Program-made: the position numbers
Assembly: GCF_001677475.2 (NCBI RefSeq)
Contig: NZ_CP015229.1
Length of the DNA stretch: 64,000 bases
Source: Escherichia coli
Lineage (GTDB): Bacteria > Pseudomonadota > Gammaproteobacteria > Enterobacterales > Enterobacteriaceae
Direction: 5' to 3' (one strand)
Part shown: piece by piece, positions 3,001 to 9,000 of the stretch
How the letters are laid out: each line of letters starts with the position of its first letter
Numbering within the stretch: the stretch's first letter is position 1

Positions 3001-6000
3001 ATGGTCTGAGTCAGAAGAAGAACGAAGAGTAAGCGCGAATATGCCTGATGGTGCAACACCATCAGGCATATTAACTTATGCTTTCAGTACAGCCAGAGCT
3101 GCTTCGTAATCCGGCTCGGTGGTGATTTCATCCACCAGCTGGCTGAAAATCACATTGTCATTTTCGTCAATAACCACAACGGCACGCGCTGCCAGACCTT
3201 TCAGTGGGCCATCAGCAATTGCCACACCGTAGGCTTGCAGGAATTCAGCGTTACGGAAAGTGGAGAGGGTGATAACGTTGTTCAGACCTTCTGCGCCGCA
3301 GAAACGAGACTGGGCGAACGGCAGATCGGCAGAGATACACAGCACAACGGTGTTGTCGATCTCTGTTGCCAGTTGGTTAAACTTACGTACTGATGCGGCG
3401 CAAACACCGGTATCAATACTCGGGAAAATGTTCAGCACTTTGCGTTTACCCGCAAACTGACCGAGGGTGACGTCAGACAGATCTTTTGCCACGAGAGTAA
3501 AAGTCTGCGCTTTGCTACCCGCCTGCGGGATGGAATTGGCGACTGTAACCGGGTTGCCCTGGAAATGAACGGTTTGTGACATGATTATCTTTCCTGTTTA
3601 CATATAGTTAACGTCACACCTAGTTTATGCTAACTGTCAATAACACAGCAAACGCTATTTGCGCTTAATCCGCAGACAACCGCGACAACAAGGAGTAAAG
3701 ATGAGAACCGTTAAGGTTTTTGAGGAAGCCTGGCCCTTACATACCCCGTTTGTGATTGCTCGGGGAAGTCGCAGTGAAGCGCGCGTGGTGGTGGTTGAAC
3801 TGGAAGAAGAAGGTATTAAAGGCACCGGTGAATGCACGCCGTATCCGCGTTATGGAGAAAGTGATGCCTCGGTAATGGCGCAAATTATGAGCGTCGTGCC
3901 GCAATTAGAGAAAGGGCTGACACGGGAGGAGTTGCAAAAAATTCTCCCTGCCGGCGCAGCACGTAATGCGCTGGATTGTGCATTATGGGATCTGGCGGCG
4001 CGAAAACAGCAGCAATCGCTGGCTGATTTGATCGGCATAACGCTTCCCGAGACAGTCACCACTGCCCAGACGGTAGTCATCGGTACGCCTGATCAGATGG
4101 CCAATAGTGCATCAACACTCTGGCAGGCAGGCGCGAAATTACTGAAAGTAAAGCTGGATAACCATCTTATCAGTGAGCGGATGGTGGCAATTCGCACAGC
4201 TGTGCCCGATGCGACGCTGATCGTTGATGCAAATGAATCCTGGCGTGCAGAAGGGTTGGCGGCGCGTTGCCAGCTATTGGCGGATTTAGGCGTTGCGATG
4301 CTTGAACAACCGCTTCCTGCGCAGGACGATGCGGCGTTGGAGAATTTTATTCATCCGTTACCGATTTGTGCAGATGAAAGTTGTCATACTCGTAGCAATC
4401 TGAAGGCGCTGAAAGGGCGCTATGAGATGGTTAACATTAAGCTCGATAAAACGGGTGGCCTGACGGAAGCGCTGGCGCTGGCGACTGAAGCACGTGCACA
4501 AGGTTTTAGTCTGATGCTGGGCTGCATGTTGTGTACCTCTCGTGCCATTAGCGCCGCTTTACCGCTGGTGCCGCAGGTCAGTTTCGCCGATCTTGACGGA
4601 CCGACCTGGCTGGCGGTAGATGTGGAACCGGCGCTTCAGTTCACAACGGGCGAATTGCATCTTTAGGATGCCAGCGCAGCAAGTTTGCCATCGCAAAGAG
4701 ATATTTTTCGCTGGCTTCGTCGGAGGAGATGGGCGGAAACTCTGCGGTGATGCAATGCAGGTTGAGATCCGCACACCAACTACCGAAAGAGCCAGGTGTT
4801 TCATAACCGACGCTGGTTACCAGAGGCAATTCAAACGCCTGGGCCAGCCATTCGCCTAATTCGCTGTGTCTGGGATCTTCAATACAGGCCAGCGGATCGT
4901 GGAATGAGACCACCCAGGCAGGTTGAATGCGGTGTATAAGCTGGCACAGCGCCTGGGTTTCAGGTTCGGAGCCAGGTTTGTCACCTGTCAGCAATACGAC
5001 ATCACGTTCTTCAGCGGCGCTGTTCCAGCGATAAACGGTTTCACTTTCCTTCCAGTTCGCCGCCGGAAAGTTTCTGTTTAAATCCACACCATTAGCATTG
5101 GCCCGTAACCCCAACTGGCAGCCGTCAGGATTCACACACAGCACCACATGATGACGGCGCAAAGAAGGTGTCAACGTCCGCAGAGCACAGGAGAGCGTGA
5201 CGATCGAAGAGTTTTCATCACCGTGAGTGCCAGCCAGAATCAAACCACTTTCGCGGCTGGCTGCAGGGGCAGGAAACCAGATTAACGGCGCGCCCAATAA
5301 TGAACGTCCGTAATGTTCTGTTCCGGGCGGAAATGCGCCGCGTTCGGCGCGTGGGCGAGTTACGGTCATGATCGTCTCTGGTTCAGGAAGTATTACAGGC
5401 AGTGTTGTGCAAATTTTGCGGATTATCAAATCCTTTTCTTCAACGCTATGTTATCGATCTTGTATCACTTTTTTGATGGAAGTTGTTTGCATTTTCATTG
5501 ATGTGCAGATATTAGAATTGTCGTAATGTTATATACATGGCGTATTTTATTCTTACTGGTTCTACACATGTTAATCGCATCTGATTGATCAGTTCACCTT
5601 AATAAGTTTAATAAATCGTACTGCACATAGTACAGTACGATGGTAGCTATATAATTGATTTACATGAAGAATGGCTTATCGCCATCAGTCCCGGGTTGAT
5701 TGATTCCTATATTCTCACCAATGTGTTTCTCAGGTTTATCGATGATATCTGTAATTAATGCTGCGACACTCTTACGTGATACGATCGTACCTTTGAATGG
5801 TTCATTGCGTGAGGTAAGCTCATAATCAATAATATCTTCATCAGTCAGCCAGGCAGGGCGAAGAATTGTATATTCCAGTCCAGAAGCCTCAATTGCATCC
5901 GCAGCCCTGCGGAATGGTTTTAGGGGTTCACCAATAACTGCATTATTCCATTCGCCAAATTTTCCTGGAACTTCATCATAAATACCGAGGGAAAGAACAA

Positions 6001-9000
6001 AGATCAGACGTTTAACATCACAGGCTTTCATCGCAGCGATCACTGAATTTGCCTGAATATCTAAATCTTCCCCCGTAAGGTTGGCATACACAACATCCTG
6101 TCCCTGCATGGCCTGCTTCAGTGCTGCATGATTCAGTACATCCCCCATAATAATCTTGCTATTAGTGGGATAGGGTTTGTGGATTTTTGCTGGCTGACGG
6201 GCAAATAAAGTTTGTTTAATGGTTTGTTTATCTGCCAGTTGATTAATCACATGGCGGGCTATCTGACCGCCAGCACCAAGAATCAGTACATTTTTCATGA
6301 AGCTTTTCCCAGATTATTGGCAGCAATATGCCAGGCCATATCACTATTACGGATTTGAATATGTTTCATTACAGAGTTTCCTCAAAGAACGGAGCTAATA
6401 CTGAAATTGATTCAGCCACATAGACTTTGCCGTCATAAAGATCCATATGGTTTGCGCCTTCAACAATGTGATAGCGTTTATCCTGGCTTGATGCTCGATC
6501 GTACAGGTCGTCACTCATCCATTTGCTCCCTGCCTGGCTGCCCGCCACAATCTGTATCGGCTGAGTCAGGTACACTTCCGCCATATGGTAAGCATCATAG
6601 GTAATAATCTGGTTAAGGCTGCGCAAAGTAGCGTAACCCGGTGCTGTTGGGTACTGCGCGCGAGGGGTGTGGTAATACTCCCAGGCCTGACGCAGTTCTT
6701 CGTTCAGCGCATCGGACTCCTTCATTGGTGCCAGTGGCATAGTGGCGTATTCTCCGCTGCTAATATCGCTGGTTCGGGCGTTTGAACCCGCGTCAACGTA
6801 TGGTAGGGCATCAATAGATTTCACATTGTTTTCCCAACCATTACGGAACATCGAACCAATATTGACCGCACTAACGGTAGCGATGGCCTTGATGCGGCGA
6901 TCCTGAATGGCAGCATTGGCTGTATATCCTGCACCGGCACAAATTCCCATCGCACCAATTCGGGTATTGTCGACATAAGAAAGCGTTGTCAGGTAATCAA
7001 TCACGGCACTGACGTCTTCAGTACGAATGTATGGGTTTTCTAACTGACGCGGCTCGCCGCCGCTTTCACCTTGATAAGATGCGTCATAAGCAATAGTGAC
7101 AAATCCCTTTTCCGCCAGTTTTTCGGCATAGGTTCCGGCCGTTTGCTCTTTAACGCCTCCACCTGGGTGAGATACCACAATTGCCGGATACTGACGGGTT
7201 TCATCAAATTTTGGAGGGAAATAGATCACTGCAGACAAAGAGATGGTTGGATTATTGCTGTTAGTGAAGCTGACTTTATTATTCATCATTCCGTTCCTCA
7301 TGGAGTTGTCGGTTCGTTTTGACGGTTGGTGATATCACTATAGATATTGATCATTAAGTTGATTAGACCCTAAATTATGATTAGACCTATCATTTAAATG
7401 ATTAATAGATTGTATGGAGATACTGAATGAAGCGTGAAGAAATCGCTGATCTGATGGCGTTTGTCGTCGTTGCAGAGGAGCGTAGCTTCACTCGCGCAGC
7501 AGCCCGCCTGAGCATGGCGCAGTCAGCTTTAAGCCAGATAGTGCGCCGTATAGAAGAACGATTGGGATTGCGGCTTCTGACGCGAACCACGCGCAGCGTT
7601 GTACCCACTGAAGCGGGCGAGCATCTTTTGTCTGTTCTTGGCCCTATGTTGCATGACATAGATTCTGCCCTGACATCCCTGAGCGATCTGCAGAACCGCC
7701 CATCCGGGACAATACGTATTACTACTGTAGAACATGCAGCAAAAACGATATTGTTACCAGCTATGCGCACATTCCTGAAATCGCATCCTGAAATTGATAT
7801 CCAGCTTACCATTGATTATGGTTTGACCGATGTCGTTTCTGAACGTTTTGATGCAGGCGTCCGTCTGGGTGGGGAGATGGATAAAGATATGATCGCCATT
7901 CGAATCGGGCCAGATATACCAATGGCTATTGTTGGCTCACCGGATTATTTTTCTCGTCGAAGTGCTCCAACGTCAGTGTCACAATTAATAGATCATCAGG
8001 CAATTAATTTGTATCTTCCCACATCGGGTACAGCAAATCGCTGGAGATTAATACGCGGTGGACGTGAAGTTCGTGTTCGCATGGAAGGTCAGCTTTTACT
8101 GAATACGATAGACCTGATCATTGATGCTGCAATTGATGGGCATGGATTGGCGTATCTACCTTATGATCAGGTTGAGCGGGCTATTAAAGAAAAAAAACTG
8201 ATACGTGTTTTGGATAAATTCACACCAGATTTACCCGGTTATCACCTGTACTATCCACACCGTCGACATGCTGGCTCGGCATTCTCATTATTTATAGATA
8301 GGCTGAAGTATAAAGGTGCTGTTTAGCACTACTTGCTGATACATTAATTTAATTCTTCTCTTAACGTATTCTTAGTTCCTTTCAACGTTTTGGTCGTTTT
8401 TTATTCTTCGTACAATGGCGACAGATGCTGATTATGATACCGAAAACGGGTTTGAACGTGCGAAGCCCGAACGTAGTGTTCGGAGTTCTATGTGCTTTAC
8501 CGCATTTTGGAGACTATTATTTACACTAAATCTGATTTGATATATTGATACTTAAAACATTTGATGCTTCCTTTGTCACTTTTTTGATGGAAGTTGTTTG
8601 CATTTCTTTAAGGCGAAACAAATAATTACGCATCAATTTTAATGTCGGTTAGAGGGAAACTTATGAAGCACTCTGTTTCAGTCACGTGTTGTGCGCTGTT
8701 GGTCAGCAGCATTTCTCTTTCGTATGCAGCTGAAGTTCCGAGCGGCACAGTACTGGCAGAGAAGCAGGAGCTGGTGCGCCACATTAAAGATGAGCCTGCG
8801 TCGCTGGATCCCGCTAAAGCCGTGGGCCTGCCAGAGATTCAGGTCATTCGCGATCTGTTTGAAGGACTGGTGAATCAGAACGAGAAAGGGGAGATTGTCC
8901 CCGGCGTTGCGACTCAGTGGAAAAGTAATGACAACCGTATCTGGACTTTTACCCTGCGCGATAACGCAAAATGGGCGGATGGCACGCCGGTAACGGCGCA

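What the first reader, a model, noticed from the sequence alone, without database searches (positions are those of the whole stretch)
5465..8605. Identical 30-bp sequence in two intergenic regions flanking the murein-peptide recycling genes
tcacttttttgatggaagttgtttgcattt occurs at 5465-5494 (between ymjC-like and mpaA) and at 8576-8605 (about 60-90 bp upstream of mppA), in the same orientation on the + strand. A perfect 30-mer recurring 3.1 kb apart next to functionally linked genes (MpaA amidase and MppA tripeptide-binding protein, with the regulator PgrR between them) suggests a shared cis-regulatory site or a small repeat element rather than chance.
Basis: seen in the sequence. Interest (0 to 1): 0.45.

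Follow-up and report, generated by a model that had tools for sequence, protein, structure and literature searches.

The report
Direct repeats flanking an inserted gene cassette
The two identical 30-base stretches are a duplicated piece of the old shared promoter region between mpaA and mppA, left on either side of a foreign three-gene block (SDR gene, ycjY, pgrR) that was inserted there in E. coli; this is an ordinary kind of insertion scar, though a clearly documented one.

Summary
The 30-mer occurs exactly twice in the window (5465-5494 and 8576-8605, + strand), with none expected by chance. It is neither a dispersed repeat element nor a site that evolved twice.

In 71 of 74 enterobacterial species with both genes, mpaA and mppA are divergent neighbours 138-233 bp apart, with one copy of this sequence. 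About 190 of 5,426 complete E. coli genomes have the same "empty" arrangement. In the window, a 3,081-bp block (SDR gene, ycjY, pgrR) sits between two copies of the 30-mer.

The block is a fragment of a six-gene module found elsewhere in Citrobacter, Klebsiella and Salmonella, and it ends in gene debris (a queH fragment). It has no transposase, integrase or terminal inverted repeats.

The right copy carries the probable -35 box of the mppA promoter. The left copy lies upstream of the probable mpaA promoter.

Perfect 30/30 identity is a minority state. K-12, O157 and Nissle have GCC on the left and GAT on the right (27-28 of 30). Chimeric repeats and empty sites carrying the GAT variant show that recombination resolves inside these repeats.

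Verdict: a real insertion footprint of modest interest.

The parts
5465..5494 (.). Left direct repeat (DR-L). This is the mpaA-proximal copy of the duplicated 30 bp of the ancestral mpaA-mppA spacer. It lies about -71 to -100 from the putative mpaA transcription start.
   Evidence: Exact match. It is contiguous with the ancestral left flank seen in empty-site genomes. Its GAT variant is shared with DR-R, whereas K-12, O157 and Nissle have GCC.
8576..8605 (.). Right direct repeat (DR-R). This is the mppA-proximal copy and contains the probable mppA -35 hexamer.
   Evidence: Exact match. It is contiguous with the ancestral right flank in empty-site genomes.
5495..8575 (.). Inserted 3,081-bp cassette of foreign origin. 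It is absent from empty-site E. coli and from other Escherichia and enterobacterial species.
   Evidence: Empty sites. Species survey. The cassette is 77-80% nucleotide-identical to part of a six-gene module in C. koseri and other enterobacteria (protein named K. aerogenes/Salmonella). It has no terminal inverted repeats.
5660..6298 (-). Intact NmrA-like SDR oxidoreductase gene (212 aa). K-12 retains only its 5' fragment, annotated in RefSeq as a partial 'NAD-dependent dehydratase' pseudogene (the ymjC/ymjD pseudogenes, from memory).
   Evidence: ORF. RefSeq annotation 'SDR family oxidoreductase'. Homologues. K-12 lacks window 5495/6-6159.
6369..7289 (-). ycjY, an alpha/beta (dienelactone-type) hydrolase. 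A second paralogous hydrolase gene present in O157, O145 and GF75 is missing here.
   Evidence: The donor-type module has two hydrolase genes.
7427..8326 (+). pgrR (ycjZ), a LysR-type regulator transcribed divergently from ycjY.
   Evidence: A LysR gene sits in the same position in the donor-type module.
8424..8498 (+). Fragment of a queH-like gene (debris from the donor context) inside the right end of the cassette.
   Evidence: RefSeq pseudogene annotation at the equivalent position in O157 TT12A and RM11911. The coordinates were mapped by the offset from pgrR. The segment 8326-8575 has no match in the donor-type modules.
8598..8626 (+). Putative sigma-70 promoter of mppA: TTGCAT (-35, inside DR-R), 17-nt spacer, AATAAT (-10, outside the repeat).
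   Evidence: Consensus scan (coordinates). Both hexamers lie in the most conserved blocks of the spacer across 51 species. No transcription start data were available.
5401..5429 (-). Putative mpaA promoter: TTGATA (-35), 17-nt spacer, AACACT (-10) on the minus strand. It lies wholly to the left of DR-L.
   Evidence: My own reading of the sequence, coinciding with the conserved blocks GCAGTGTTGTGCAAAT and TATCAAA. The consensus scan did not call it, so this is weak evidence.
5615..5641 (-). 12-bp-stem hairpin just downstream of the SDR stop codon. It may act as a terminator separating the cassette operon from mpaA in this long form, and it is removed by the K-12-type 665-bp deletion.
   Evidence: Inverted repeat I15. 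It lies within the 665 bp absent from K-12. Its function is inferred only.

Best explanation
The two 30-mers are a target duplication. They are one 30-bp piece of the ancestral 182-bp divergent promoter region between mpaA and mppA, now present on both sides of a horizontally acquired cassette.

The cassette originally held pgrR, two hydrolase genes and an NmrA-type SDR gene, about 4 kb in all. In this window it is 3,081 bp after loss of one hydrolase gene. It is a random-looking fragment of a larger lysR / hydrolase-hydrolase-SDR-SDR-OYE module that circulates among Enterobacteriaceae.

The cassette has no mobility genes or terminal inverted repeats. The duplication therefore most likely arose from two illegitimate joints placed 30 bp apart in the target, by staggered break repair or two template switches. 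This step is inferred.

Because 30 bp were duplicated, neither flanking gene lost promoter sequence. mppA keeps its -35 box and about 20 bp upstream of it in the right copy. mpaA keeps its whole upstream region, including the left copy.

Since then the repeats have served as short homology. Recombination between occupied and empty alleles, or between the two copies, resolves inside them. This produces chimeric repeats, empty sites that carry the right-copy variant, and, in this window's lineage, a left copy converted to the right-copy sequence. That conversion is why the two copies are perfectly identical here.
For: **Empty sites**
- E. coli 2017-02-2CC, ST648 and Z0117EC0005 have mpaA and mppA 182 bp apart with a single 30-mer. 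The left flank equals the window's left flank and the right flank equals the window's right flank.
- 174-192 of 5,418 matching complete genomes are like this.

**Ancestral state**
- In 71 of 74 species loci that hold both genes, the genes are 138-233 bp apart. These include E. albertii, E. whittamii, Citrobacter, Enterobacter, Raoultella and Kosakonia.
- A single diverged copy of the 30-mer is detectable (within 6 mismatches) at the same distance from mpaA in the other Escherichia species, most Citrobacter, Leclercia and Yokenella.

**Foreign origin of the cassette**
- The SDR protein has 81-84% identical homologues in a 5.9-kb six-gene module found in different genomic contexts.
- Nucleotide homology covers window 8325-6316 and 6308-5589 only.
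- The right end carries an annotated queH fragment.
- The cassette ends have no inverted repeats: the best match is 17/30 against a shuffle mean of 16.6.

**Nested deletions, so the longest form is the oldest**
- Two hydrolases plus intact SDR (O157, GF75, O145), then one hydrolase plus intact SDR (window, Nissle-type SYNB1934, SMS-3-5), then one hydrolase plus truncated SDR (K-12, RM11911, E1V33). All share the same repeat junctions.

**Promoter content**
- The blocks GTTTGCATTT (in the 30-mer) and AACAAATAATTA are at least 90% conserved over 51 species. They fit TTGCAT-17-AATAAT.

**Recombination in the repeats**
- DR-L is GCC in K-12, O157, GF75 and Nissle, and DR-R is GAT in all E. coli examined.
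- The window, O145:H28 and SMS-3-5 have GAT in DR-L as well.
- SMS-3-5 DR-L combines the GAT of DR-R with the T26 of the Nissle DR-L.
- Ten to fourteen empty sites carry GAT.
- SCU-172 (a GAT empty site) is identical to occupied SMS-3-5 over 3,033 bp of left flank. It differs at 17 of 1,400 bp on the right, starting 89 bp from the repeat.

**Transfer between species**
- In Escherichia sp. E1V33 the cassette is 97-99% identical to K-12 while the flanks are 86-90% identical. It carries the derived K-12-type deletions.
Against: - No known bacterial transposition or integration mechanism gives a 30-bp target duplication, so the step that created the repeat is inferred and was not observed.
- No donor with the exact cassette ends was found. 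The closest modules are only about 80% identical at the nucleotide level, so microhomology at the original joints cannot be checked.
- The direction of several events is ambiguous. The GAT doublet could have arisen in an empty allele before insertion. Empty sites in E. coli could be ancestral, secondary deletions, or imports by homologous recombination.
- The promoter assignments rest on consensus matches and conservation only. No transcription start data were obtained.
- The K-12-type 665-bp deletion starts within 1 bp of the edge of DR-L. A purely passive-scar model does not explain this coincidence.
Confidence: 0.85

Rival explanations
1. The 30-mer is an att-like recombination site. The cassette would then be a small non-autonomous integrative element that an unidentified trans-acting recombinase, or a circular intermediate, inserts into and excises from this specific sequence.
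For: - Direct repeats of tens of bases flank the insert, and empty sites hold a single copy.
- The cassette is present or absent within one haplotype background.
- It has moved into another Escherichia species, with the right-hand switch at or inside DR-R.
- The K-12-type deletion ends within 1 bp of the repeat edge.
- The same spacer holds a different islet (cdtABC-like) in S. enterica arizonae and diarizonae.
Against: - The cassette has no integrase or other recombinase gene, no dyad symmetry in the 30-mer and no terminal repeats.
- The cassette ends are gene debris rather than defined element ends.
- In E1V33 the E. coli-like tract extends about 45-65 bp beyond DR-L into the flank. That fits ordinary homologous recombination, not site-specific integration.
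- The Salmonella islet shows no duplication of the 30-mer homologue.
- All occupied genomes share one and the same pair of junctions, consistent with a single insertion event.
Confidence: 0.07
2. The two copies are a shared operator or activator site. Selection would keep them identical so that mpaA and mppA respond to the same regulator (PgrR or a global factor).
For: - Parts of the 30-mer (TCAC, GGAAG, GTTTGCATTT) are conserved over 51 species.
- Both copies lie upstream of functionally linked genes.
Against: - The copies are not kept identical. Most E. coli examined differ at 2-3 positions, and O157 and Nissle-type strains have mutated the -35-like hexamer in the left copy (TTGCAT to TTGTAT).
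- A single copy serves both genes in 71 other species loci.
- The published PgrR SELEX list names the ycjY/ycjZ spacer, not these sites (PMC5934670).
- The 30-mer has no dyad symmetry.
- The conserved 3' block is better explained as the mppA -35 box.
Confidence: 0.06
3. It is a chance repeat or a member of a dispersed repeat family (REP, ERIC or MITE-like).
For: None beyond the AT-rich, low-complexity look of the sequence.
Against: - 0 of 100 shuffles give even one match.
- There are at most two copies per genome, always at this locus.
- There is no Rfam match.
Confidence: 0.01

Closest known systems
Target-site duplications of transposable elements
   Same: Direct repeats of target DNA flank the inserted DNA. 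Unoccupied sites in other strains and species hold a single copy, and the duplicated sequence is native to the target.
   Different: The repeat is 30 bp, against 2-14 bp for bacterial IS and Tn families (from general knowledge). The insert has no transposase and no terminal inverted repeats, and its ends are gene fragments.
attL/attR of integrase-borne genomic islands and non-autonomous (cis-mobilisable) islets
   Same: Repeats of tens of bases bound a strain-variable block of foreign genes. The block is lost precisely, leaving one copy.
   Different: There is no integrase, the target is not a tRNA or tmRNA gene, and the repeat has no recombinase-type core or dyad. The evidence for transfer fits homologous recombination through the flanks.
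Short-direct-repeat-mediated deletion and gene conversion in E. coli (recombination between short homologies)
   Same: 30-bp repeats 3.1 kb apart are associated with precise presence/absence of the intervening DNA and with chimeric repeat copies.
   Different: The events were inferred from population genomics and not observed. Many could equally be allelic replacement from other strains rather than intrachromosomal deletion.
Regulatory rewiring by insertion into a divergent promoter region (PgrR regulon: ycjY-ymjDC-mpaA, PMC5934670)
   Same: The published PgrR regulon includes mpaA as the last gene of the ycjY operon. The data here show that this operon was created when the cassette landed upstream of mpaA.
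   Different: The literature read here treats PgrR as the peptidoglycan-recycling regulator and does not describe it as part of an inserted cassette. The 30-mer itself is not a reported PgrR site.

Membership tests
Transposon / IS target-site duplication | Direct repeats of target sequence flank the insert, and the empty site has one copy | tested here: met
Transposon / IS target-site duplication | Terminal inverted repeats at the ends of the insert | tested here: not met
   The best ungapped match between the left end and the reverse complement of the right end is 17/30, against a shuffle mean of 16.6. No such pair appears.
Transposon / IS target-site duplication | Transposase gene or remnant in the insert | tested here: not met
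   The insert holds only the SDR, hydrolase and LysR genes plus a queH fragment, according to ORFs and RefSeq annotation. No separate transposase profile search was run.
Transposon / IS target-site duplication | Duplication length typical of a known family (2-14 bp) | tested here: not met
   The duplication is 30 bp. The family lengths are from general knowledge.
Integrase-mediated genomic island (attL/attR) | Tyrosine or serine recombinase gene next to one att site | tested here: not met
   None is annotated or seen as an ORF between or beside the repeats.
Integrase-mediated genomic island (attL/attR) | Identical core repeat at both ends, and a single core at the empty site | tested here: met
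Integrase-mediated genomic island (attL/attR) | Excision to a circle and re-integration dependent on a recombinase | not testable with these tools
   This needs PCR for circular junctions in recA+ and recA- backgrounds.
Dispersed repeat element (REP/ERIC/MITE) | Many copies per genome at unrelated loci | tested here: not met
   Two copies in the window. One to two places per genome, all at this locus.
Transcription-factor binding site shared by two promoters | Site conserved in both copies under selection | tested here: not met
   The copies differ in K-12, O157, Nissle, RM11911 and E1V33.
Transcription-factor binding site shared by two promoters | Demonstrated protein binding | not testable with these tools
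   The PgrR SELEX list names only the ycjY/ycjZ spacer at this locus (PMC5934670). The primary PgrR paper (PubMed 23301696) is not held in the library.
Sigma-70 promoter element (mppA -35) | Hexamers with 16-18-nt spacing, upstream of the gene and conserved | tested here: met
   TTGCAT-17-AATAAT at 8598-8626. Both hexamers lie in blocks conserved at 90% or more.
Sigma-70 promoter element (mppA -35) | Mapped transcription start | not tested
   No TSS data were found in the papers searched.

The most novel reading that the evidence does not exclude
The conserved 30-mer in the mpaA-mppA spacer is a preferred entry and exit point for gene cassettes. In this reading the pgrR-ycjY-SDR block behaves as a recombinase-less, or trans-mobilised, mini-island. 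It excises as a circle through its 30-bp repeats and re-enters empty sites in other Escherichia lineages. The exact coincidence of the K-12 deletion endpoint with the repeat edge would then reflect cleavage at that junction.
Probability: 0.07. Interest if true: 0.6.

Novelty: new member of a known kind. Interest (0 to 1): 0.33.

Why it matters
The result re-reads a textbook K-12 locus. PgrR, described as the regulator of peptidoglycan recycling, together with ycjY and the partial SDR pseudogene (ymjC/ymjD in K-12 nomenclature), is a foreign cassette that split the ancestral mpaA-mppA divergent promoter. The link between PgrR and mpaA (the ycjY-ymjDC-mpaA operon) is therefore a by-product of where the cassette landed, and about 3% of E. 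coli and all sister species examined but one lack it.

This matters for interpreting PgrR regulon data and for comparing strains. It also offers a natural test case for how a 30-bp duplication preserves two promoters and later acts as a recombination substrate. It does not reveal a new kind of element or mechanism.

Tried and rejected
1. **Short form as the original insertion.** I considered whether the K-12 short form, whose gap starts at the repeat edge, was the original insertion end. I rejected this because the structural forms are nested deletions of a two-hydrolase, intact-SDR ancestor that matches the gene order of the donor module.

2. **Apparent hypervariability of mppA.** The identities of 48-95% came from my own error. 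The query started at 8664 instead of 8663 and was translated out of frame. The corrected MppA identities are 98-99.8% within Escherichia. The adjacency result was not affected.

3. **Known RNA families.** The Rfam scan of 5300-8750 gave only a sub-threshold RAGATH-10 hit inside pgrR (E = 0.18).

4. **Symmetry.** I found no terminal inverted repeats at the cassette ends and no dyad symmetry in the 30-mer.

5. **Closer donor.** SDR homologues above 85% identity were all E. coli at this same locus. The nearest foreign modules are about 80% identical at the nucleotide level. The cassette end segments 5495-5582 and 8326-8575 match nothing in the loci held.

6. **Ancestral GCC in DR-R.** I searched occupied E. 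coli for the GCC variant in DR-R and found no full-length match.

7. **Literature.** The primary PgrR paper (PubMed 23301696) is not in the library, and no paper with a mapped mppA or mpaA promoter was found.

8. **Haplotype counts.** Exact counts of repeat haplotypes could only be bracketed from BLAST identity bands, because partial alignments fall into the same bands.

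
Full report
**1.

The 30-mer TCACTTTTTTGATGGAAGTTGTTTGCATTT occurs at 5465-5494 and 8576-8605 on the + strand. It occurs nowhere else in the window, even with three mismatches allowed. None of 100 dinucleotide-preserving shuffles gave a match. The repeat does not extend meaningfully beyond these 30 bases.

The genes around it are:

| Feature | Coordinates | Strand |
|---|---|---|
| ycjG | about 3659-4666 | + |
| mpaA | 4641-5369 | - |
| left repeat (DR-L) | 5465-5494 | |
| intact NmrA-type SDR gene | 5660-6298 | - |
| ycjY | 6369-7289 | - |
| pgrR | 7427-8326 | + |
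| right repeat (DR-R) | 8576-8605 | |
| mppA | from 8663 | + |
| ynaI | 10327-11358 | - |

**2. Empty sites show what the repeat is**

A BLAST of the region against 5,426 complete E. coli genomes found strains in which mpaA and mppA are direct neighbours (hit H30).

- In 2017-02-2CC, ST648 and Z0117EC0005 the two genes are 182 bp apart and the spacer holds one copy of the 30-mer.
- To the left of that copy the sequence equals the window's left flank. To the right it equals the window's right flank.
- Such empty sites occur in 174 genomes with a 181-bp probe and in 192 with a 91-bp probe.

The two 30-mers therefore bound a 3,081-bp indel.

**3. The empty arrangement is ancestral**

I scanned one genome per bacterial species with MpaA and located MppA in the loci (repeated in the correct frame).

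- mpaA and mppA are divergent neighbours 138-233 bp apart in 71 of 74 species loci that contain both genes. These include E. albertii, E. whittamii and three other non-coli Escherichia, plus Citrobacter, Enterobacter, Leclercia, Lelliottia, Kluyvera, Raoultella and Kosakonia.
- A diverged single copy of the 30-mer lies at the same distance from mpaA in Citrobacter, Leclercia and Yokenella.
- The only exceptions are Escherichia sp. E1V33, which has the same cassette, and S. enterica subsp. arizonae and diarizonae. The two Salmonella subspecies carry a different 3.15-kb islet with cdtA/B/C-like genes in the same spacer.

**4. The insert is foreign DNA without mobility functions**

- The SDR protein has 81-84% identical homologues named (by source annotation) in Enterobacter sichuanensis, Raoultella ornithinolytica, Klebsiella aerogenes/Salmonella, Citrobacter koseri, Kluyvera cryocrescens and Serratia.
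- The contigs examined for three of these proteins (sources name C. koseri and K. aerogenes/Salmonella; the third is unnamed) show a 5.9-kb module: lysR, transcribed divergently from two DLH-type hydrolases, the NmrA-type SDR, an adh_short SDR and an OYE reductase.
- That module is 93.6-99.7% identical between contigs but sits in different flanks.
- The E. coli cassette matches it at 77-80% nucleotide identity over window 8325-6316 and 6308-5589. It is thus a fragment running from lysR to the NmrA-type SDR.
- The end segments 5495-5582 and 8326-8575 match nothing in the loci held. RefSeq annotates a queH gene fragment in the equivalent of the second segment.
- There is no transposase or integrase and there are no terminal inverted repeats.

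E. coli shows three nested forms with the same repeat junctions:

| Form | Examples |
|---|---|
| two hydrolases + intact SDR | O157, GF75, O145 |
| one hydrolase + intact SDR | this window, Nissle-type, SMS-3-5 |
| one hydrolase + SDR truncated by a 665-bp deletion | K-12, RM11911, E1V33 |

The longest form matches the donor gene order and is therefore the oldest.

**5. What the 30-mer contains**

I aligned the ancestral spacer from 51 species. The conserved blocks are:

- GCAGTGTTGTGCAAAT and TATCAAA, near mpaA.
- TCAC, GGAAG and GTTTGCATTT, within the 30-mer.
- AACAAATAATTA, downstream of the 30-mer.

The last two fit a sigma-70 promoter for mppA: TTGCAT (8598-8603), a 17-nt spacer, then AATAAT (8621-8626). 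The first two fit a weaker minus-strand promoter for mpaA: TTGATA-17-AACACT at 5401-5429. That one is my own reading and the scan did not call it.

On this reading the right copy supplies the mppA -35 box and about 20 bp upstream of it. The left copy lies about -71 to -100 from the mpaA start. These assignments are inferences, because no transcription start data were found.

The published list of PgrR SELEX targets names the ycjY/ycjZ spacer at this locus and gives the regulon as ycjY-ymjDC-mpaA (PMC5934670). The 30-mer is not a reported PgrR site. The link between PgrR and mpaA follows from where the cassette was inserted.

**6. The perfect identity is unusual and informative**

The states of the two copies in the genomes examined are:

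| Genome | DR-L | DR-R |
|---|---|---|
| K-12, GF75, L1PEag1 | GCC | GAT |
| O157, Nissle-type | GCC, plus TTGCAT changed to TTGTAT | GAT (O157 DR-R also has a 1-nt deletion and a substitution in its T-run) |
| RM11911 | GCC, plus an inserted A | GAT |
| Escherichia sp. E1V33 | GCC | GCC |
| all outgroup species | single copy with C at the second of the two variable positions (GCC in E. albertii and two other Escherichia; ACC, GAC, GTC or GCA in the rest) | |

- No occupied E. coli genome with the K-12-type right end was found with GCC in DR-R.
- The window's exact left junction with GAT occurs in 32 genomes.
- O145:H28 also has a perfect 30/30 match, and SMS-3-5 has GAT in DR-L with one other change.
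- From, at most about 160 occupied genomes can carry the GAT type in DR-L.

The same derived doublet appears in both copies and in 10-14 empty sites. Independent mutation cannot explain that, so sequence has moved between the copies or through the empty state.

Two cases show the joint lying inside the repeat.

- SMS-3-5 DR-L combines the GAT of DR-R with the T26 of the Nissle-type DR-L.
- SCU-172, a GAT empty site, is identical to occupied SMS-3-5 over 3,033 bp of left flank right up to the repeat. It differs at 17 of 1,400 bp on the right, starting 89 bp from the repeat.

Empty sites with GAT occur on two different flank backgrounds.

The direction of these events cannot be fixed with the data I could obtain. 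They could be deletion between the repeats, import of an empty or occupied allele from another strain, or gene conversion between the copies.

**7. The cassette has crossed a species boundary**

In Escherichia sp. E1V33 the flanks resemble E. whittamii. They are only 85.6-90.2% identical to K-12, while the cassette genes are 97-99% identical and carry the derived K-12-type deletions.

- On the left, the E. coli-like tract runs about 45-65 bp beyond DR-L into the spacer.
- On the right, DR-R and everything beyond it carry the non-coli variants.

This fits homologous recombination with short tracts on the left and a joint at or in the repeat on the right. It does not fit site-specific integration at both ends.

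**8. How the repeat most likely arose**

The sequence is single-copy in every unoccupied genome and the insert has no element ends. The simplest account is a single illegitimate insertion whose two joints overlapped by 30 bp in the target, so that the overlap was copied onto both sides.

This step is inferred. I found no donor close enough to read the joints. A 30-bp duplication is longer than those left by known bacterial transposons (general knowledge).

One observation remains unexplained. The 665-bp K-12-type deletion starts within 1 bp of the right edge of DR-L. I estimate the chance of such a coincidence at roughly 1%.

**9. Verdict**

It is wrong on two points: the 30-mer is not a repeat element, and the site was not acquired or maintained twice for regulation.

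The feature is a direct-repeat-bounded insertion of a foreign cassette into a divergent promoter region. That is a known kind of event, here well documented, with a useful consequence for how the PgrR-mpaA connection is understood. Interest is modest.

Noticed in passing
window 5495-6159 (compare L085 2396-2397): The 665 bp missing in K-12, RM11911 and Escherichia sp. E1V33, which truncates the SDR gene there (ymjC/ymjD in K-12 nomenclature), begin within 1 bp of the right edge of the left 30-mer. No microhomology explains this endpoint.
   Followed up: partly
L026 3848-7000 and L027 3562-7000: S. enterica subsp. arizonae and diarizonae carry a different 3.15-3.4-kb AT-rich islet in the same mpaA-mppA spacer. 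It holds three ORFs of 270, 275 and 191 aa that look like cdtA, cdtB and cdtC (cytolethal distending toxin). The mpaA-proximal conserved blocks are kept, and no homologue of the 30-mer is detectable.
   Followed up: partly
L086 3024-8904; also L087, L089, L102: The 5.9-kb lysR / hydrolase x2 / NmrA-SDR / adh_short-SDR / OYE module is 93.6-99.7% identical between contigs (sources name C. koseri and K. aerogenes/Salmonella) but sits in different flanks. It is bracketed at both ends by a palindromic motif of about 22 nt, CCGCTTnGTGCCAGAAGCGGAC, which suggests it moves as a unit.
   Followed up: no
window 8424-8498: RefSeq annotates a fragment of an epoxyqueuosine reductase (queH) gene at the equivalent position in O157 and RM11911, inside the right end of the cassette. 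This is debris from the donor context.
   Followed up: partly
L008 (Escherichia sp. E1V33), locus 4431-6906: A non-coli Escherichia carries the E. coli cassette at 97-99% identity, between flanks that are only 86-90% identical to E. coli. This indicates recent transfer of the cassette between species.
   Followed up: yes
window 5615-5641: An almost perfect 12-bp-stem hairpin (ATCGTACTGCAC ATA GTACAGTACGAT) lies just downstream of the SDR stop codon. It may be a terminator that would uncouple mpaA from the ycjY operon in long-form strains, and it is absent from K-12.
   Followed up: no
L095 342-1070 (SYNB1934, a Nissle derivative): mpaA is annotated as a pseudogene with an internal stop in this strain.
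   Followed up: no
L104 5393-6322 (O145:H28 RM12581); L002 3012-3942 (L1PEag1): The cassette shows further decay in some strains. The second hydrolase has an internal stop in O145:H28. In L1PEag1 an internal deletion fuses ycjY and pgrR remnants. An ISVsa5 insertion appears in strain 23CRST012 (H27).
   Followed up: no
E. coli complete-genome collection: Six to twelve matches to this chromosomal region lie on records typed as plasmids.
   Followed up: no
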